Below, piece after piece: positions 1 through 11,405 of a DNA stretch of 35,797 bases (within the stretch, counting starts at the first letter, position 1; every line of letters starts with the position of its first letter). The notes beneath the pieces were generated by a model. The model ran no database searches, had not been told where the DNA came from, and saw only the letters and a program-made list of their open reading frames with translations. The position numbers and the translations under genes were made by a program. This DNA comes from a virus (lineage: Duplodnaviria > Heunggongvirae > Uroviricota > Caudoviricetes): IMG/VR virus record IMGVR_UViG_2563366950_000001. One strand, 5' to 3'.

Positions 1-1032
1 TCAAAAAATTCCTATTGATGTTGGTAGTGTTGCCAGCGGATTAAACCGTAATGCAGTTTCCAGGTGATCCGGTGCCAGATGTGCGTAACGCATAGTCATT
101 TTTATGTCGTGATGTCCGAGGATTTTTTGCAAAGCAAGGATATTTCCACCCGACATCATGAAATGCGCTGCAAACGTATGGCGCAGAACGTGTGTCAGTT
201 GACCGCGAGGGAGCACGATAGACGTTTTTTCCATCACGGATAAAAATTGAAAATAGCAGTCTGTAAAGAAATTGAACCCATCAAGCGCCATGATCTCTTC
301 GTAAAGCTCTTTACTGATAGGGATGCTTCTGTTTTTCTTCCCCTTCGTTCTTACAAAGGTAATTCGGTATTTGGTCACTTGCGAGCGGGTAAGATTTATT
401 GCTTCTCGCCAGCGTGCGCCTGTGCTTAGGCATATCTTGACTACCAGTGCCAGAATTGGGTCCTGACGTTTGCAATCAGCCAGCAGTTCAACAATCTGCT
501 CATGGGTAAGCCATGCCATCTCTTTTTCTGCGATGGTGAATTTTCGCATGTTCTCCAGTGGGTTCGGATACGACCATTCGCCCAGGCGGGATAGTTCGCT
601 AAAAACACTACTTAGATAGCTTTGCTCCAGGTTAATGGTGACCGGGCTTGCTCCTTTCTTCCATTTCTCGCTGAAGTAGATCTCACCTGTCAGGCGTTTA
701 TCTCGATAGTGGGCAAACATTTTAGAGGTTAGATCAGTTGCAAGGGGATTGCCCAGAGCGTCAACCATCAGCAGCAATTTGTCATAGACATGCTGCCCAG
801 CAGTCAGTGATTTACCATGTAGTTTGAACCATAGCTCAACCACGTCTTTCAGTGTTCGACGATCCACTGATTCACCCAGCCAGGGCTTTGCTTCGGTTTC
901 TTCCATCGTGTGACGCTCAAAAGCCAGTGCTTCGCCTTTGGTGGCGAATTGTTTACGCACACGACGCCCACTACGTCCGGCGGGGTAACATTCGCAAAGC
1001 CATTTTCCTGTGGTGAGTTTTCGTACAGCCAT
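1..1032 (-). CDS. int: P2/186-family tyrosine integrase (site-specific recombinase)
   Basis: 343-aa ORF ending exactly at window start. The C-terminal region carries the tyrosine-recombinase signature (HVLRHTFA...HHDIKMTMRYAHL). It sits at the prophage end next to the repressor, as in P2/186. Confidence 0.93.
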   Translation of the reverse strand: MAVRKLTTGKWLCECYPAGRSGRRVRKQFATKGEALAFERHTMEETEAKPWLGESVDRRTLKDVVELWFKLHGKSLTAGQHVYDKLLLMVDALGNPLATDLTSKMFAHYRDKRLTGEIYFSEKWKKGASPVTINLEQSYLSSVFSELSRLGEWSYPNPLENMRKFTIAEKEMAWLTHEQIVELLADCKRQDPILALVVKICLSTGARWREAINLTRSQVTKYRITFVRTKGKKNRSIPISKELYEEIMALDGFNFFTDCYFQFLSVMEKTSIVLPRGQLTHVLRHTFAAHFMMSGGNILALQKILGHHDIKMTMRYAHLAPDHLETALRFNPLATLPTSIGIF

Positions 1033-1118
1033 AAAAAATGCCCTCCAATAGAGAGCATTTTTACTGTATGCATAACCAGTGTCAATGTATGTTTATGTAT
1101 TTTACATACATCACTTAT

Positions 1119-2090
1119 TTAATCGGAGGATTTTTCTGAATGAGAAGGTTTGATTTTTTCTTTCGCGGTAGACCATAGCGTTTGGAAACTTGGCGGATAA
1201 TCCATTTGATCAGAAAAAGCAGAATCTCCAGACATGTTCCAGTCCTTAAATACCTGAATAGCATCTTCTTTGGTCGCAGTCGAACCGTAAATTTGTAGGA
1301 AGACTTGACCAAACATTAAGGCATGCCTTCTGTCTTTTCTGCGAATGGACTCATGAGTATACTTTTTGGAGATACTCAGACAGATATAAGAAAGCCATGA
1401 TAAAATGGAAATTCCAATCAGGCCTCTGGTGAATAGATAAAATAGTTCAAATCCTTTAGCATTTATGAAATCAGTAACAAAATATAATGATATGAACGAA
1501 AAAATGACAGCGGAAAGACCGGCTATTGCACCAGCAATAGCCCATGTTTTGGCGAGTGAAATAAAGTGATCATCATCATCACCTAAATCATCTTTTACAC
1601 TATTGACATATTCGGGAATTTTTTGATCAATTCTCTCTTGATGTGCTCGACTGGTTAATTCGTTATTTGAAGCCTCTAACTCTTTTATCCTAGAAAAAGT
1701 TTGCTCAAGTAAAGATTCTTTTTCTATGTTTAAATTTTCTAACTCTTTGTTTTTTAATGATAATGAGGTGTTGCTTTCTTGCAAATCAGATAAGCGAGCT
1801 GTATAAAAACGTAATAAGTTTCTGAATTCATTATTATCTTTTTTTAACACGTTAAGTTGTAATTCAATATCTTCGTCGCTAAAGCCGACTCTATCTAAGT
1901 TTTGGAGATGGCGTCTATATTGATCCTTGAATTCTTCAATTTCACCATTTTTCAACAAGTTCTTTAGATATGTGCGTTCATGTTCAGGAAGTGGAATAGA
2001 ATCATCATGTATAAAATCAACGTATTTTTTAAACTCTGATTTGGTGATGCTGTTTTGTATTGTTTCTTTTTTGTGTTCTTTAGAGTCCAT
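1119..2090 (-). CDS. hypothetical cargo protein: N-terminal coiled-coil domain, acidic linker, two predicted transmembrane helices, short C-terminal tail
   Basis: 323-aa ORF, visibly AT-rich. Heptad-like, charged N-terminal half (KNKELENLNIEKESLLEQ...), then DDLGDDDDH, then hydrophobic stretches WAIAGAIAGLSAVIFSFISLYFV and LIGISILSWLSYICLSI. Same strand as the repressor, 12 bp downstream of its stop codon. I recognise no family. Confidence 0.7.
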   Translation of the reverse strand: MDSKEHKKETIQNSITKSEFKKYVDFIHDDSIPLPEHERTYLKNLLKNGEIEEFKDQYRRHLQNLDRVGFSDEDIELQLNVLKKDNNEFRNLLRFYTARLSDLQESNTSLSLKNKELENLNIEKESLLEQTFSRIKELEASNNELTSRAHQERIDQKIPEYVNSVKDDLGDDDDHFISLAKTWAIAGAIAGLSAVIFSFISLYFVTDFINAKGFELFYLFTRGLIGISILSWLSYICLSISKKYTHESIRRKDRRHALMFGQVFLQIYGSTATKEDAIQVFKDWNMSGDSAFSDQMDYPPSFQTLWSTAKEKIKPSHSEKSSD

Positions 2091-2102
2091 GATAAGTCCA
2101 AA

Positions 2103-3029
2103 TTAAATGTTTTTAATGAAAGCACAGTGGCATTTTGCTAAAAGTTTTATATTCTCAATGTCACATATGAAATCAGCATGAGTAGATATTACTTTAACTT
2201 TTCCTACGGGTATGCGGACCAATGTTCTAATGTTTATTTTGCCTTCAATTTCTACTAACCATTCACCATCAGATATTTCTTTATATCCATAGTCTACTAC
2301 GAAAACATTTTCGCTATCGATCACAACCTGCGGATTTATAAGGTTGTGTGGTATTAAAGATTTATCAAAGTGGATATAGTCCGCATCTATTAACTTACCA
2401 TTTATTAGCTTATATGCTAATAACTTTGCTACATCAGTATTTACATCGTTCGATTTTGAGCCTTTTCCAGTAACGAGCCAATCTAGTGATATACCAGTTT
2501 CAAGTGCGCATTGGATAATCCAATCGGCTGGAAATGTATCCCTCATATAACGATTAGCTAGTGTGCTTTTTGAAATACCCAAATGATCAGCTAAAGCTTG
2601 TCTTGTCTTAAATCCATAGGCTGCAACGATTCGCTCTATTGCTGCTTTTCCGTTTTGATTTATAGTAACAGTGTTCTCATTTGGGTTTTTAGGTTCTCTG
2701 TTGAGGTGCCGAGATTCACTGTTACAATTGTCGTGACTTTTATCTGCAAAGCTTTCCATTTCGGTATCAGTACCAAATGCTAACCACTCAATCGATACAC
2801 CAGTTTCCATACTACAGATAACAACCCAGTCAGCTGGGAAAGTGTCACGCGCATACCTGTTCGCCATTGTGCTCTGTGATATCCCCAGATGATTGCAGAA
2901 TGCTTGGCGTGAAGAAAAACCATACGCTTCTAATATCCGCTCGATGACTGCTTGCCCTCCGCGATTCTGCATGATTAAGGATTTCTTTTTTTCGTCCACA
3001 TGGCGAAATGTGATTTCGTGTGTTGACAT
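2103..3029 (-). CDS. CI-type immunity repressor with tandemly duplicated N-terminal helix-turn-helix domain plus C-terminal domain
   Basis: 308-aa ORF divergent from the early operon. Two internally repeated ~60-aa segments (RILEAYGFSSRQAFCNHLGISQSTMANRYARDTFPADWVVICSMETGVSIEWL and RIVAAYGFKTRQALADHLGISKSTLANRYMRDTFPADWIIQCALETGISLDWL) resemble the 186 CI N-terminal HTH fold. Its position is that of the lysogeny repressor. Confidence 0.75.
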   Translation of the reverse strand: MSTHEITFRHVDEKKKSLIMQNRGGQAVIERILEAYGFSSRQAFCNHLGISQSTMANRYARDTFPADWVVICSMETGVSIEWLAFGTDTEMESFADKSHDNCNSESRHLNREPKNPNENTVTINQNGKAAIERIVAAYGFKTRQALADHLGISKSTLANRYMRDTFPADWIIQCALETGISLDWLVTGKGSKSNDVNTDVAKLLAYKLINGKLIDADYIHFDKSLIPHNLINPQVVIDSENVFVVDYGYKEISDGEWLVEIEGKINIRTLVRIPVGKVKVISTHADFICDIENIKLLAKCHCAFIKNI

Positions 3030-3117
3030 AACCGAATTGCGATCCTATTCTCCGAAATGTGAAGTTTAAGTCACGATTAAAACTGACTCACCACAAGCCA
3101 ATAGGAGATGTTGCATC
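3030..3117. promoter_or_regulatory. divergent lysis/lysogeny switch region (early lytic promoter and repressor promoter; operators presumed)
   Basis: 88-bp gap between the divergently oriented repressor gene and the Apl/Cox-like gene. Individual -10/-35 boxes and operators were not resolved. Confidence 0.4.
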
Positions 3118-3339
3118 ATGACCCCTAACATTTCAATAACTCTGAATACGCCACATGTCACAATCGAGCGTTATAGCGAACTTACTGGTCTTTCAATCGA
3201 CACAATCAACGATATGCTGGCAGATGGTCGCATCCCTCGGCATCGTCTTCGTAAAGACAAAAAAAGAGAAAAGGTAATGATCAACCTTGCTGCTCTTACC
3301 GTTGATGCACTTACTGATTGCAATGTTGTGTTCAACTAG
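3118..3339 (+). CDS. Apl/Cox-type excisionase / early transcriptional regulator
   Basis: 73-aa first gene of the rightward early operon. Small basic HTH-like protein ([26 protein letters not shown]). GGAG ~10 nt upstream of ATG. Confidence 0.55.
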
Positions 3340-8187: not shown

Positions 8188-8256
8188 TTACGCGGGTTAA
8201 CAATTCGTGCTCTTAATAATAACTGGCATATCAGGCTGATGAACGTAAAAAAACGT

Positions 8257-8297
8257 TTTACATCAGTAAGATTATTATATACTGTAAATATAAACAG
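8257..8297 (+). promoter_or_regulatory. putative sigma70 promoter (TTTACA ... TATACT) overlapped by a LexA/SOS box (CTGTAAATATAAACAG, 8282-8297)
   Basis: Perfect CTGT-N8-ACAG with an AT-rich spacer, flanked as tACTGT...ACAGtg (consensus TACTGTATATATATACAGTA). Lies in the gap after gene A, upstream of the small ORF and the DinI-like gene. Confidence 0.55.
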
Positions 8298-8340
8298 TGG
8301 TTATAAACACAGTATTCCGAGTGGTGTTATAGGAGGAAAG

Positions 8341-8529
8341 ATGCAGGACTATTTTTTGGAGTCTTTGAAGCTCCAGCGCATTGATTTTTTTCTTAAGCTT
8401 GTAGCGGCTAGTGAGTGTAGTGATGAAGAGAAGGGGCTGGCTTTGCAGTGGGTATCTGAACTGACTGATGAACTCATGGCAAAAATCAGAACCCACGAAT
8501 ACAACCGCTCAATGGATGTCATCAGTTGA
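8341..8529 (+). CDS. small hypothetical protein (first gene of the putative SOS-controlled operon)
   Basis: 62 aa from the ATG at 8341, which is preceded by AGGAGG; the longer ORF-track start at 8239 lacks an RBS and would overlap the LexA box. Confidence 0.4.
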   Translation: MQDYFLESLKLQRIDFFLKLVAASECSDEEKGLALQWVSELTDELMAKIRTHEYNRSMDVIS

Positions 8530-8539
8530 GGTGACTTTT

Positions 8540-8773
8540 ATGCGCATTGAAATAATGATCGATAAAGAGCAGAAGATTAGTCAGTCTACCCTGGACGCCC
8601 TTGAAAACGAGCTTTACCGCAATCTGCGCCCCCTGTATCCCAAAACGGTAATTCGTATCCGCAAAGGTAGCTCTAACGGTGTGGAACTGACCGGGCTGCA
8701 ACTGGACGAAGAAAGAAAACAAGTGATGAAAATTATGCAGAAGGTGTGGGAAGACGACAGCTGGTTACATTAG
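8540..8773 (+). CDS. DinI-family protein (Tum-like antirepressor module candidate)
   Basis: 77 aa from the ATG at 8540, after a GAGGTG RBS. Size and the acidic C-terminus (MKIMQKVWEDDSWLH) are typical of DinI-like proteins. Confidence 0.75.
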   Translation: MRIEIMIDKEQKISQSTLDALENELYRNLRPLYPKTVIRIRKGSSNGVELTGLQLDEERKQVMKIMQKVWEDDSWLH

Positions 8774-8993
8774 GGAACGTTGCGGACGATAAAACTGGTT
8801 TTTACCGTTCGCAAGGTTGAGCAACGAGCCGTGCGAGGCGTTAGTTATGGATAAATTGGTTGCAGGGTGATATGTAAATAGGTTAATACGTAGCACTCTT
8901 CGAATAGTTTCGTATTTTTGTTGTCCTATAATCATAAGATGACAGCCTCCATGCACCACAATCCGTGGCGTTTGAGGCATAAAGGAGGAAAAT

Positions 8994-9194
8994 ATGTCTG
9001 AACTTCTGCGCAAAGTTCTCTCTGCACCAGGTAAGATTATGCAGGATGTCATCCGTCAGGATGTGCAACAGTCTGATAATAGTAAAATTATCACAGATGC
9101 TAATGGTGCGGCGACCTTAAACATGAACAATAAGCAGGTACGTGAATCAATGCGTGCCAGAATGGAAGAATTGGCTGCAAAACGACAAGGATGA
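8994..9194 (+). CDS. small hypothetical protein (66 aa), first gene of a two-gene cargo operon
   Basis: Strong RBS AAGGAGG 6 nt upstream of ATG. Stop at 9192-9194 lies 3 bp before the next start. Confidence 0.55.
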   Translation: MSELLRKVLSAPGKIMQDVIRQDVQQSDNSKIITDANGAATLNMNNKQVRESMRARMEELAAKRQG

Positions 9195-9197
9195 GGA

Positions 9198-9980
9198 ATG
9201 GGACCCTTAGTTATCATGGTCGTCCTGGTTTGCGGGTTCTGGTACACCGAAAATCATTACCAGTCCCGCATCAGGCAAGCAAGAAGTAATGGTTGGAATT
9301 CCTATTTTTATGTAGCTATGCATGGTTGTAAGTTTGCTATTCAGGGGTTTACTCTGATGGCTGTTACATTCGTTATCTTGCTAGTTATAAGCTCAGTTAT
9401 CAATGTTTTTGGTTATTTTTGGCCTAAGTTACATGTGGACTTTTATTCATGGCTCACAGACGTAAAGATAATGTCTTACCCATTGTTCTTTGTGTTGTCT
9501 ATGCTGCTTGCGGTGTTTATTGCTTATGACCAAGGTAACAATGCGCGAAGAGCAATAGAAAACGAAGAGATTCGTCAATCTGCATATCGCGAGATGGCAG
9601 CTCAAGATGGAATTGAGTCACTGTTAGTTCAGGCTATAGATGAAGGTAAGCTCATCTTTGTTACGCTAAAATCCAGAAAAGTTTACATTGGTTACGTAGC
9701 TGCTCCTCGGATGGAGCATCAGGAAACTCAGCATCTGGCTCTCATACCATACATCAGTGGTTATCGTGATAAAGATACGCTCAGATACCATGAGCAGCAT
9801 CGTTACTATGAACTTTACCTTAGTAAAAATATTACAGCAGACTCAACTCCACTGAACTTAAATCATTTTAGGCATGTAATCCCAATGGATCAGGTTGAGA
9901 GTATTTCAATATTTGATACTGAAACTTATAAATCTTTCGAAGATTTTTCTACGCCTGACCAGACCAAAGTCACTGCATGA
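9198..9980 (+). CDS. hypothetical membrane protein (3 predicted N-terminal TM helices plus ~150-aa soluble C-terminal domain)
   Basis: 260-aa ORF, AT-rich. Hydrophobic segments LVIMVVLVCGFWY, LMAVTFVILLVISSVINVFGYFW and LFFVLSMLLAVFIAY. Translationally coupled to the upstream small ORF. Confidence 0.7.
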   Translation: MGPLVIMVVLVCGFWYTENHYQSRIRQARSNGWNSYFYVAMHGCKFAIQGFTLMAVTFVILLVISSVINVFGYFWPKLHVDFYSWLTDVKIMSYPLFFVLSMLLAVFIAYDQGNNARRAIENEEIRQSAYREMAAQDGIESLLVQAIDEGKLIFVTLKSRKVYIGYVAAPRMEHQETQHLALIPYISGYRDKDTLRYHEQHRYYELYLSKNITADSTPLNLNHFRHVIPMDQVESISIFDTETYKSFEDFSTPDQTKVTA

Positions 9981-10028
9981 CTATGCCGCATGAATATGCA
10001 TGATCGTTTGAGGATCGTTTTTGCTGAG

Positions 10029-10054
10029 GCCCGCCAGTTCTGGTGGGCTTTTGC
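10029..10054 (+). terminator. rho-independent terminator candidate downstream of the 260-aa gene
   Basis: GCCCGCCAG-ttc-TGGTGGGC hairpin (one G-U pair) followed by TTTTGC. Confidence 0.45.
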
Positions 10055-10097
10055 TTATGTCATGCACCTGCATGAAAATCGCTACAAAAAGCGGGCA

Positions 10098-10116
10098 GGC
10101 GTGGCGGGGATACGAG
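10098..10116. other. probable cos site (cohesive-end region) of the P2/186-type genome
   Basis: GGCGTGGCGGGGATACGAG followed by GCGCGCGC resembles the 19-nt cohesive ends I recall for P2 (GGCGAGGCGGGGAAAGCAC) and 186. It lies in a non-coding gap upstream of the portal end of the late region. Confidence 0.4.
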
Positions 10117-10199
10117 CGCGCGCAACTCGAGATAGTGTGATACTTATCTGAGAAATCTTAACAAGGTTCAATACAATACCCTTTCAAAAAAAGGGGAGT

Positions 10200-11354
10200 G
10201 TGATGTTTGTAAAAAATAACTTTAATACAAATAATTTCGATGCGGAATTAGTTGAAGCGATTGGTAATAGGCTGGAAAACAACCAATTTTCGGATGCAAT
10301 ACTTGCAGGAACCAAATATCTAACAACTTTGCTGCGTGAAAAAGGGCAATGTGAAGGGGATGGGGCTCAGCTTGTTGGTACTGTTTTGGGTGGACAATCA
10401 CCTAGAATCCAAATTAATAGTCTTCAATCTGTATCAGAGCAGGACGAACAGCGCGGATTTGAAGCACTATTAAGAGGCTACTATCAGTGTATAAGAAATC
10501 CAAGGACACATGACAATTTCCCTGATACAGAAGATTCCTGCATGAGAATATTGATCATGTTGGATACTTTTATTAAGTATTTAAAAAGAGATGTTGCTGA
10601 GTTCGATTACACAGCAATTCTTGAAAGAATTTATGAGGTTCACTTTGTAAATAATTCTGATTATGCAGAAGCTTTAATATCACAAATTCCAGAAAAAAAA
10701 CTACTGGATTTTTTCCAAAGTTTAATTTCTCGCTTTAATGAAAGGCCAACCAAGGAAATTGATTCTATATTCAAAGCAATAAACCAACGCTTTTCAGGAG
10801 AGGAAGAAAAAGCCGCAATGCGGTTGCTAGGTGATGAGTTACGCAAGGCTAGCAATAATGTTGAGTTTGCTAATGTATTTAGAATAATTAAGCCGAGCGC
10901 ATGGAGAAATCTTCCTGATGATGTTTTAATTAGAATGGAAAATATAATCATCGAAGAGTGCAAAAAAGGATATTTGGATTTCTATTCTGATGCGACCAAA
11001 GGAGCTATAGGAACATGGGGTAATACATTTGGTAGCAAATTTAAAAGAAGAGGTGATCTTGGTGATGCTTTAATTGGATTGTTATATGATAGTTGGTATA
11101 CGCAAAATTATGTTGCGAAATATTACGTTTTTTCAATCCCTTCTATCATTACTGATGATGTGAAAGTTAAGGAGTTAGCTGATGCTTTAGCTTATGCCAC
11201 CATTGTAAATGGTGCTAAGCTTTTACGAACAAAATTGATTGATGCATGTAAAAATTATCCTGATAAGTTGAAAGAGCATCTTAGGGATGCTGTTCAGCAA
11301 CGGATGGATAGTGATAAAAAATATGCGGAAGAATTATTAGGTCAAATAAGCTGA
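10200..11354 (+). CDS. hypothetical protein with HEPN-like N-terminal domain (Rx4H motif); candidate abortive-infection RNase
   Basis: 384-aa ORF, strongly AT-rich, GGGGAG RBS. N-terminal domain contains CIRNPRTHDNFPD (Rx4H), which I associate with HEPN/TIGR02391-like families. C-terminal ~250 aa unrecognised. Confidence 0.7.
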   Translation: MMFVKNNFNTNNFDAELVEAIGNRLENNQFSDAILAGTKYLTTLLREKGQCEGDGAQLVGTVLGGQSPRIQINSLQSVSEQDEQRGFEALLRGYYQCIRNPRTHDNFPDTEDSCMRILIMLDTFIKYLKRDVAEFDYTAILERIYEVHFVNNSDYAEALISQIPEKKLLDFFQSLISRFNERPTKEIDSIFKAINQRFSGEEEKAAMRLLGDELRKASNNVEFANVFRIIKPSAWRNLPDDVLIRMENIIIEECKKGYLDFYSDATKGAIGTWGNTFGSKFKRRGDLGDALIGLLYDSWYTQNYVAKYYVFSIPSIITDDVKVKELADALAYATIVNGAKLLRTKLIDACKNYPDKLKEHLRDAVQQRMDSDKKYAEELLGQIS

Positions 11355-11405
11355 TTATTATTTGCACCTAATCTCACTTTCGATGTTAGGTGCATTTCTA
11401 TATGC

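What the first reader, a model, noticed from the sequence alone, without database searches (positions are those of the whole stretch)
1119..3029. Repressor-coupled membrane protein: a cI-rex-like lysogen-expressed module next to int
In 186-type phages the repressor gene is followed directly by int. Here an AT-rich 323-aa gene (coiled-coil N-terminus, acidic linker, two TM helices) is inserted between them on the repressor strand, 12 bp after the repressor stop. It would therefore be co-transcribed with the repressor in a lysogen. That is the logic of lambda cI-rexA-rexB, where repressor-linked genes exclude other phages.
Basis: partly seen in the sequence, partly recalled or inferred. Interest (0 to 1): 0.7.

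Follow-up and report, generated by a model that had tools for sequence, protein, structure and literature searches.

The report
Unknown membrane gene in repressor–integrase defence slot
A 186/P2-like prophage of E. coli CFT073 carries an uncharacterised two-helix membrane protein right after its repressor gene, in a slot where sister phages carry proven anti-phage genes, so it is a good but untested candidate for a new phage-exclusion protein.

Summary
ORF 1119-2090(-) encodes 323 aa. It starts 12 nt after the CI repressor stop, with no terminator between them. It is AT-rich (34% GC against 50% for the window) and has two TM helices. The window is the rcdA/ybjL prophage of E. coli CFT073, and the gene is WP_000377448.1, annotated "hypothetical" (phrog_2628). 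No Pfam, NCBIfam or PADLOC family is matched above threshold.

All 43 IMG/VR viral contigs that carry a family member place it directly after a CI gene. In phages with ≥99%-identical CII, the same cI–int slot holds other cargo instead, always on the repressor strand: Old, PD-Lambda-1, KAP NTPases, PDC-M18 or PDC-M11. PD-T7-4 lies there too, stacked behind a family member. The slot is therefore a defence hotspot inside the lysogenic operon.

The N-terminal 135 residues are hypervariable (17-19% identity), while residues 241-300 are 82% identical. This 2TM plus C-terminal module recurs in about 430 protein clusters. One large branch replaces the helical N-terminus with a TIR domain.

The most likely reading is a lysogen-expressed, membrane-acting anti-phage protein. 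It follows the rex logic but is not a Rex homologue. Function and mechanism are untested. The hotspot concept is already published; the protein family is new.

The parts
1119..2090 (-). ORF323 (WP_000377448.1, 323 aa including the 1119-1121 stop codon): uncharacterised 2-TM inner-membrane protein, member of phrog_2628
1686..2090 (-). Residues 1-135: hypervariable helical N-terminal region, consisting of a small helical head and the start of a long helix. Predicted to be cytoplasmic.
   Evidence: Mean pairwise identity is 17-19% in A1. AlphaFold helices. Relatives replace this region with a TIR domain or another domain.
1545..1685 (-). Residues 136-182: conserved juxtamembrane helix (QQxRIDxKIPxYV...DD) that includes the acidic run DDLGDDDD
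   Evidence: 56% mean identity and invariant residues L145, Q151, I154, D155, Y161, V162, V165, D172, D173, F176
1371..1544 (-). Residues 183-240: TM1 (183-205), a 10-residue periplasmic loop, and TM2 (216-240)
   Evidence: Hydropathy and charge distribution; AlphaFold helices 72-204 and 213-268
1191..1370 (-). Residues 241-300: the most conserved part (YTHESIRRKDRRHALMFGQVFLQIYG...VFKDWNMSGDSAFSD). Predicted cytoplasmic because it is positively charged. Residues invariant across the superfamily: E247, H256, A257, F260, G261, F281, W284, F292.
   Evidence: 82% mean identity; superfamily alignment A2
2091..2102 (-). 12-nt spacer between the CI stop and the ORF323 start. It has no terminator and only a weak GGA Shine-Dalgarno sequence.
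2103..3029 (-). CI repressor with two tandem Phage_CI_repr HTH domains plus Phage_CI_C. RefSeq places the start at 2972.
1091..2492 (.). AT-rich block (32-34% GC) that varies between lineages: the CI C-terminal domain plus ORF323. It is flanked by sequence shared with sister phages.
1033..1118 (-). Conserved int leader. A hairpin at 1034-1062 pairs the int Shine-Dalgarno sequence (GGAGG, 1042-1046). Its 3' arm ends in a U-run that extends one base beyond the stem, right up to the int AUG at 1032. It may act as an attenuator or terminator that ends the CI-cargo transcript.
   Evidence: RNA fold with z = -5.15. About 95% conserved in every cargo class. The function is inferred.
1..1032 (-). P2/186-type tyrosine integrase
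3118..3339 (+). cox/apl-like excisionase-repressor, the first gene of the divergent lytic operon. A pR-like promoter lies at 3023-3051.

Best explanation
ORF323 is cargo in a defence hotspot that lies inside the lysogenic (repressor) operon of a 186/P2-like prophage. It is probably transcribed together with CI in the lysogen. It is predicted to insert in the inner membrane as a helical hairpin, with both ends in the cytoplasm.

It most likely protects the lysogen against other phages as a single-gene, membrane-acting system. In this model the hypervariable N-terminal helical region recognises or responds to an infection cue and drives oligomerisation. The conserved 2TM plus juxtamembrane C-terminal module then compromises the membrane, giving an abortive-infection or exclusion outcome.

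Shown here: the anatomy, the linkage to CI, the hotspot, the family and its TIR-fused relatives.
Inferred: co-transcription, topology, anti-phage function, and the division into sensor and effector.
For: - The gene lies 12 nt after CI with no terminator between them, and 186 has the pL cI-int operon.
- Family members follow a CI gene on the same strand in 43 of 43 IMG/VR loci. Int lies about 90-120 nt downstream in 31 of these, and other defence cargo sits in between in most of the rest. The same order is seen in E. coli, Dickeya, Yersinia and Enterobacter.
- Among 73 informative phage loci with ≥99%-identical CII, the slot holds PD-Lambda-1 (11 loci), Old (3; E 1.6e-234), KAP NTPase PDC-S20 (3), PDC-M11A (2), PDC-M18AB (1), ORF323 family (5), unknown cargo (6), or only a 63-aa ORF (42). 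All cargo is on the CI strand, mostly 0-31 nt after CI. PD-T7-4 and Abi_alpha occur beside family members.
- The gene stays intact in decayed prophage remnants with broken CI and int (Enterobacter, Pectobacterium) and as a stand-alone chromosomal gene in Chimaeribacter. This argues for a benefit to the host that does not depend on the phage life cycle.
- The N-terminus is 17-19% identical against 82% for residues 241-300, the pattern expected of a variable recogniser joined to a conserved effector.
- A profile search finds 428 clusters that share the 2TM-C module. Twenty of the 140 new representatives, and a further family of at least 295 clusters, carry a TIR domain in place of the N-terminus. 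TIR_2 scores up to 74 bits and the SxW..E glutamate is kept. TIR is a hallmark immune domain.
- Published precedent: TM proteins in hotspot systems act as suicide effectors, and 6 of 8 unknown hotspot loci tested in P4 were defensive (PMC9122126, PMC13586616).
Against: - No experiment or transcript data could be consulted.
- PADLOC 2023 gives no hit, and newer DefenseFinder or DefensePredictor models could not be run.
- Fold searches return only generic helical matches.
- The association with defence is guilt by location. The commonest occupant of the slot is a 63-aa secreted-type peptide with no defence annotation.
- In the TIR-fused relatives the membrane module could be an anchor or sensor rather than the effector, which would leave ORF323 without an obvious killing domain.
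- Some distant relatives lie in ordinary chromosomal contexts, for example beside rsmF.
- A hairpin sits just before int, and no consensus pL promoter was found, so the transcript structure is uncertain.
Confidence: 0.5

Rival explanations
1. Superinfection exclusion without cell death. The protein sits in the inner membrane and blocks DNA entry or an early membrane-associated step of incoming phages, as P22 SieA, T4 Imm or the positional analogue K139 Glo do. It would not form a pore.
For: The gene is expressed from the lysogenic operon position. The protein has two TM helices, a very short periplasmic loop and no enzymatic domain. The N-terminus is hypervariable, as expected if it contacts phage proteins.
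Against: Almost all of the protein mass is cytoplasmic and the periplasmic loop is only about 10 residues. Relatives fuse the same module to TIR, a domain typical of abortive or NAD-depleting systems. There is no match to any deposited phage genome, including K139, by tblastn.
Confidence: 0.2
2. Lysogenic-conversion gene unrelated to phage defence. It would be a membrane protein that changes host envelope physiology, stress tolerance or colonisation, and is carried as a moron.
For: It is AT-rich accessory cargo in a uropathogen prophage. The same prophage also carries an acyltransferase moron. The commonest occupant of the slot is a small secreted peptide, not a known defence gene. Some distant relatives lie in plain chromosomal settings.
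Against: Every identifiable alternative occupant of the slot is a defence or defence-candidate protein. The family is spread across plant, soil and gut Enterobacterales rather than pathogens. TIR-fused relatives exist.
Confidence: 0.15
3. Accessory factor of the lysogeny switch. It would be a membrane protein that works with its cognate CI (or Int), for example by tethering, stabilising or monitoring the repressor. This would explain why it is always the first gene after CI and why it varies together with the CI C-terminal domain.
For: 43 of 43 viral loci place it directly after CI, even when further cargo follows. The variable block spans the CI C-terminal domain plus the ORF.
Against: It is found with single-HTH and double-HTH CI types alike. 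It stays intact where CI is truncated to a remnant, and exists with no CI at all in Chimaeribacter and in distant phages and islands. Phage 186 and most sister phages do without it. Other cargo types are equally CI-proximal.
Confidence: 0.07

Closest known systems
Lambda cI-rexA-rexB (Rex exclusion)
   Same: The genes lie directly downstream of the prophage repressor on the same strand, and so are expressed in the lysogen. A membrane component is thought to cause exclusion or abortive infection.
   Different: There is no sequence match to RexA or RexB families. This is a single gene, not a sensor plus channel pair. It has 2 TM helices against 4 in RexB (my knowledge). The phage family is different.
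cI-int accessory slot of Vibrio phage K139 (glo) and the Vibrionaceae cI-int defence hotspot (Rousset et al. 2022, PMC9122126)
   Same: A P2-related phage carries variable defence cargo between the repressor and the integrase, and the slot contains known systems.
   Different: The host clade and phage subgroup differ. ORF323 has no tblastn match in any deposited phage genome. Glo is a periplasmic protein (my knowledge), whereas ORF323 is mostly cytoplasmic with a TM hairpin.
P2 lysogen-expressed exclusion genes old, tin and fun(Z), and the P2-like gpA-portal hotspot
   Same: These are AT-rich morons of the same phage family that protect the lysogen. An Old homologue occupies this very cI-int slot in sister phages (E 1.6e-234).
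   Different: In P2 these genes lie elsewhere in the genome. ORF323 is unrelated in sequence and has no nuclease or ATPase domain.
2-TM immune effectors: SLATT domains, CBASS/Pycsar TM effectors, and the TIR + TM system of P2-like phage AC1 (PMC9122126)
   Same: They share a small helical TM hairpin with cytoplasmic termini, modular fusion or association with TIR domains, and residence in defence loci.
   Different: Pfam SLATT models are not matched; the best result is SLATT_fungal at E = 0.18 on one distant relative. PADLOC's TIR-TM model aligns only to the TIR part of the relatives. The conserved C-terminal motif (E..DR.H...FG...F..W) is not a described signature.
TIR-2TM proteins annotated only as 'TIR domain-containing protein' (e.g. 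Pseudomonas knackmussii, Vibrio fluvialis, Pyxidicoccus fallax)
   Same: They are homologous across the 2TM plus C-terminal module, with profile E-values of 1e-15 to 1e-22 against 1.8 billion proteins, and share the same invariant residues.
   Different: Their N-terminus is a TIR domain that keeps the catalytic-type glutamate, not the helical stalk. They are not CI-linked: in Vibrio the gene is paired with a 235-aa unknown gene. They are themselves uncharacterised.

Membership tests
Lambda Rex system | Sequence homology to RexA and/or RexB | tested here: not met
   Pfam, NCBIfam, PHROGs and PADLOC scans of ORF323 return no Rex family.
Lambda Rex system | Two-component arrangement: a cytoplasmic sensor plus a 4-TM membrane protein | tested here: not met
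   There is a single ORF between CI and int, with 2 TM segments.
Lambda Rex system | Co-transcription with the repressor in the lysogen | not testable with these tools
   This is only inferred, from the 12-nt gap, the absence of a terminator and the 186 pL operon model.
Prophage defence-hotspot cargo (P2/186-like) | A fixed position between conserved core genes, with alternative unrelated gene sets in closely related phages | tested here: met
   At least 9 occupancy states occur among 73 loci with ≥99%-identical CII. The flanks (int plus leader, and cox/cII) are conserved.
Prophage defence-hotspot cargo (P2/186-like) | The alternative occupants include known defence systems | tested here: met
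   Old at 1.6e-234, PD-Lambda-1 at 3e-120, PD-T7-4 at 1e-76, plus PDC-S20, PDC-M18 and PDC-M11A.
Prophage defence-hotspot cargo (P2/186-like) | Anti-phage phenotype of the gene itself | not testable with these tools
   This needs plaque or liquid infection assays.
phrog_2628 | Full-length profile match | tested here: met
   E = 5.5e-87, covering residues 17-323 against profile positions 8-314 of 314. The family has no known function.
SLATT (SMODS and SLOG-associating 2TM effector) domain | Match to a Pfam SLATT model | tested here: not met
   None of the 45 family members matches. One distant TIR-fused relative gives SLATT_fungal at E = 0.18, below threshold. One BFVD fold hit to a SLATT protein has E = 0.39. 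A profile-profile test against SLATT alignments could not be run.
SLATT (SMODS and SLOG-associating 2TM effector) domain | Two-TM hairpin fused to or associated with nucleotide-signalling or TIR domains | tested here: met
   2 TM segments, with TIR fusions in homologues. This is a resemblance in architecture only.
DUF2207_C (PF20990) | Score above the Pfam gathering threshold (33 bits) | tested here: not met
   23.7 bits for ORF323. Twenty-two of 45 members match at E ≤ 1 (best 4.7e-07), and the only score shown, ORF323's, is below the cut-off. The match covers the helix and TM composition.
Known defence proteins in PADLOC-DB v2.0.0 | Any model hit at E ≤ 1 | tested here: not met
   0 families for ORF323. 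The TIR-fused relatives hit only through their TIR domain.

The most novel reading that the evidence does not exclude
The conserved 2TM plus juxtamembrane C-terminal module (E247, D253, R254, H256, F260, G261, F281, W284) defines a large, unrecognised superfamily of membrane immune modules, with about 430 clusters at 50% identity across Proteobacteria, Myxococcota and Nitrospirota. The module is combined either with a TIR NADase or with a fast-evolving helical sensor. On this reading ORF323 is the phage-borne, repressor-operon version: a self-contained single-gene abortive-infection system whose membrane module is the killing device, making it a functional analogue of SLATT or RexB with independent origin.
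Probability: 0.3. Interest if true: 0.7.

Novelty: new variant of a known kind. Interest (0 to 1): 0.5.

Why it matters
If the gene confers phage resistance, it adds a new single-gene membrane defence family. It would also give a first functional handle on several hundred unannotated TIR-2TM proteins.

It would also show that in 186-like phages the lysogenic operon itself, between the CI stop and the conserved int leader hairpin, is the insertion point for defence cargo. That placement ties expression of the cargo to repressor expression.

For E. coli CFT073, and for Klebsiella and Enterobacter lysogens, this bears on predicting phage-therapy host range.

The hotspot idea itself is not new, so the value lies in the new protein family and in a well-defined, easily cloned candidate.

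Tried and rejected
- **Solved structures.** A profile search of PDB sequences gave nothing below E = 0.01, and the weak hits were all coiled-coil noise.
- **SLATT, DUF2207_C, Rex and holin membership.** None is supported by HMM scans.
- **Heptad periodicity of the N-terminus.** The test was not significant, so I describe the region as a 'long helix', not a proven coiled coil.
- **tblastn of ORF323 against 50,697 deposited phage genomes.** No match.
- **Literature searches.** Searches for the accession, phrog id, old-style locus tags and TIR-TM names found nothing.
- **A promoter for ORF323 itself.** The only promoter-like site near the start (2116-2089) overlaps the ATG, so I reject it.
- **A pL promoter.** The consensus scan did not find one.
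- **The idea that the gene needs its CI.** I reject this because intact copies exist beside CI remnants or with no CI at all.
Full report
**What the window is.** The 2,051 bases around the finding are 100% identical to the E. coli CFT073 chromosome (NC_004431.1, 910,381-912,431). The window is a complete 186/P2-like prophage inserted between rcdA and ybjL. RefSeq annotates the region as follows: integrase, 'hypothetical protein' WP_000377448.1 (the ORF in question), 'phage repressor protein CI', then divergently a Cox-like protein, CII, Fil, and so on up to replication endonuclease gpA.

**Check of the observation.**
- The layout is int 1-1032(-), ORF 1119-2090(-) of 323 aa, and CI 2103-3029(-).
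- The sequence reads ...AACATT-TAA-TTTGGACTTATC-ATG-GAC..., which gives a 12-nt spacer.
- The scan finds no terminator-like site there. The only promoter-like hit near it overlaps the start codon.
- The ORF is 34% GC. Int is 47% and the window is 50%.
- Hydropathy gives two TM segments, at 183-205 and 216-240. The loop between them is 10 residues long. An acidic run (167-174) precedes TM1 and a +7 cluster follows TM2. By the positive-inside rule, both termini should be cytoplasmic (the topology is an inference).
- AlphaFold2 with a 45-sequence alignment gives an all-helical model with mean pLDDT 78. A single helix spans 72-204 and runs into TM1. A second helix, 213-268, contains TM2.
- My simple heptad test was not significant, so 'coiled coil' remains a plausible but unproven description.
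- In phage 186 the cI stop overlaps the int start.

**What the protein is.** It matches phrog_2628 (function unknown) end to end at E = 5.5e-87. It matches nothing above threshold in Pfam or NCBIfam and nothing in PADLOC. The word-indexed search found 143 homologues, all in Enterobacterales and nearly all labelled hypothetical. Only 7 of 185,579 species-representative genomes carry one, so this is a rare accessory gene.

Conservation is strikingly uneven:

| Region (residues) | Mean pairwise identity |
|---|---|
| 1-135 | 17-19% |
| 136-240 | about 55% |
| 241-300 | 82% |

**Linkage to the repressor.**
- In E. coli (two other alleles of 329 and 314 aa), Dickeya, Yersinia and Enterobacter, the homologue directly follows a CI gene, with a gap of 10-30 nt.
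- In IMG/VR, all 43 viral contigs that carry a family member have CI upstream on the same strand. Int follows about 90-120 nt downstream in 31 of them. Eight carry extra cargo between the homologue and int: KAP NTPases, PD-T7-4, PDC-M11A plus an ASCH-like gene, or an IS-sized segment.
- In Enterobacter and Pectobacterium remnants the CI and int genes are truncated, yet this ORF is intact.
- In three Chimaeribacter species it is a stand-alone chromosomal gene.
- The gene therefore does not need CI, Int or a functional phage.

**The slot is a defence hotspot.** I fetched 80 IMG/VR loci whose CII is ≥99% identical to the window's. I then measured the interval between int and CI in each. The 73 informative loci divide as follows:

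| Occupant of the cI-int slot | Loci |
|---|---|
| 63-aa ORF with a signal peptide, and nothing else | 42 |
| PD-Lambda-1 homologue | 11 |
| ORF323 family | 5 |
| Unknown two-gene set (342/349 aa plus a 201/226-aa TM protein) | 5 |
| Old (PADLOC E = 1.6e-234) | 3 |
| KAP NTPases (PDC-S20) | 3 |
| PDC-M11A set | 2 |
| PDC-M18 A+B | 1 |
| Unknown 488-aa protein | 1 |

This sample is the 80 best hits and was not dereplicated, so the proportions are only indicative.

All cargo lies on the CI strand, and its start is 0-31 nt after the CI stop in most classes. To the left, the conserved sequence (about 95% identity) comprises int plus roughly 60-90 nt of leader in every class. To the right, the break lies either inside CI (about position 2493) or at the cox side. 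So CI alleles and cargo travel together as a mosaic block. In the window this block is about 1091-2492 and includes the CI C-terminal domain.

PD-Lambda-1 and PD-T7-4 were validated by functional selection in E. coli (Vassallo et al. 2022, Nat Microbiol) and Old is the classical P2 exclusion nuclease. Both statements rest on my own knowledge, not on a paper read here. A cI-int hotspot has been described for Vibrio K139-like P2 relatives (PMC9122126). A 2026 survey attributes 8% of P2 defence systems to the int-primase interval and reports that 6 of 8 unknown P4 hotspot loci were defensive (PMC13586616).

**The int leader.** The 86-nt spacer between ORF323 and int folds into a strong hairpin, AAAAAUGCUCUCU-AUU-GGAGGGCAUUUUU (1034-1062), with z = -5.15 for the 98-nt stretch. 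The hairpin pairs the int Shine-Dalgarno sequence. Its 3' arm ends in a U-run that extends one base beyond the stem to the int AUG. It is part of the flank conserved in all cargo classes. I infer that it attenuates int expression or terminates the lysogenic transcript. On that reading, 'CI plus cargo' is the unit expressed in lysogens. This is untested.

**A wider superfamily.** An exhaustive profile search of 1.84 billion representatives found 428 proteins at E ≤ 1e-3, of which 246 were at E ≤ 1e-10. An alignment with distant members keeps E247, H256, A257, F260, G261, F281, W284 and F292 invariant, and D253 and R254 nearly so. The N-termini differ between branches. Twenty of the 140 new representatives carry a TIR domain. 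Nine of the 10 I tested exceed the Pfam TIR_2 gathering score, with scores up to 74.5 bits.

A search seeded with one of these returned at least 295 clusters of about 318 aa. All 120 clusters listed carry Pfam TIR domains, and the taxa named include Pseudomonas, Vibrio, Myxococcota and Nitrospirales. Their only annotation is 'TIR domain-containing protein'. They keep the SxW..E glutamate that is catalytic in NADase TIRs (the assignment rests on my knowledge). PADLOC models align only to their TIR part.

Other distant members sit in the following contexts:
- beside Abi_alpha, between a CI remnant and an integrase;
- in a lambdoid/P22-like phage;
- in an integrase-bearing island;
- in one case next to rsmF, in an ordinary chromosomal context.

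**Interpretation.** The gene is a lysogenic-operon cargo gene of a defence hotspot and belongs to an uncharacterised membrane-module superfamily that also pairs with TIR. The most likely function is protection of the lysogen against other phages. I put this broad function, in either the abortive-infection or the exclusion form, at about 0.7.

The specific mechanism I favour is as follows. The N-terminal helical region senses a cue and drives oligomerisation, and the conserved 2TM-C module damages the membrane, giving abortive infection. This is inferred from the conservation asymmetry, from the modular exchange of the N-terminus, and from the published view that TM proteins in such systems are suicide effectors (PMC9122126). 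The main weakness lies in the TIR fusions. There the membrane module could equally be the anchor or sensor and TIR the effector.

**Comparison with known systems.** The gene works like lambda rexAB in genetic logic only. The Rex membership features I tested (homology, two components, four TM helices) are not met. SLATT membership is not met at the sequence level. The closest positional precedents are K139 glo and the Vibrio cI-int hotspot, and P2 old, which occupies this very slot in sister phages. The hotspot concept is therefore known, the protein family is not, and no paper mentioning the accession or the PHROG was found.

**Verdict.** The finding is a new variant of a known kind. Interest is moderate (0.5): it is a well-delimited, easily testable candidate that also links to a large unannotated TIR-2TM family.

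Noticed in passing
window 2103-3029(-): The CI repressor carries two tandem Phage_CI_repr HTH domains (about residues 24-93 and 126-191, 65% identical to each other) in front of one Phage_CI_C domain. 186 CI has a single HTH. CI alleles in this phage lineage range from about 181 to 318 aa. The duplication would make each monomer a pseudo-dimer for operator binding. RefSeq starts the gene at 2972. A pR-like TTGACA-17-TATTCT at 3023-3051(+) overlaps the 5' end of the longer ORF.
   Followed up: partly
window 1034-1062(-), within the spacer 1033-1118: A strong hairpin pairs the int Shine-Dalgarno sequence. Its 3' arm ends in a U-run that extends one base beyond the stem, right up to the int AUG (z = -5.15). 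It is conserved at about 95% in all sister phages whatever their cargo. It may be an attenuator or terminator that separates CI-cargo expression from int.
   Followed up: partly
L038 1242-1433(-) and 41 other IMG/VR loci (the cI-int slot): The commonest occupant of the slot is a 63-aa ORF with a signal peptide and four cysteines (MLGKVFFVVLSCSLLLNPL...). Its function is unknown. The 'empty' state of the hotspot is about 0.4 kb, not zero as in 186.
   Followed up: no
window 8200-11400(+), ORFs 9198-9980 and 10200-11354: This is a second AT-rich cargo island (38-44% GC) in the classical P2 gpA-portal hotspot. It holds a 260-aa hypothetical protein and a 384-aa 'TIGR02391 family protein'. These are likely further defence candidates in the same prophage.
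   Followed up: no
window 24551-25582(-): An AT-rich (31% GC) acyltransferase gene lies on the opposite strand just after the tail-fibre assembly gene. It looks like an O-antigen-modifying lysogenic conversion moron, at the P2 tail-gene cargo site.
   Followed up: no
L148, L156, L160, L164 (IMG/VR) and L014 (Pectobacterium): In five loci the ORF323-family gene is followed in the same slot by a KAP-family P-loop NTPase (PDC-S20-like). KAP NTPases also occupy the slot alone. This may be stacking of independent systems or a functional pairing.
   Followed up: partly
L044 1144-2849(-), L086 1143-2799(-), L022 1851-2900(-): Another recurrent and unannotated two-gene cargo set occupies the same slot: a 342/349-aa protein plus a 201/226-aa TM protein. 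It has no Pfam or PADLOC hit. In Klebsiella phage 4LV2017 the second gene is not annotated.
   Followed up: no
L118-L121 (Vibrio fluvialis and metagenomes): The TIR-2TM relative P0319 is always preceded, about 120 nt upstream, by a 235-aa gene with no Pfam hit. This suggests a two-gene unit in that branch.
   Followed up: no
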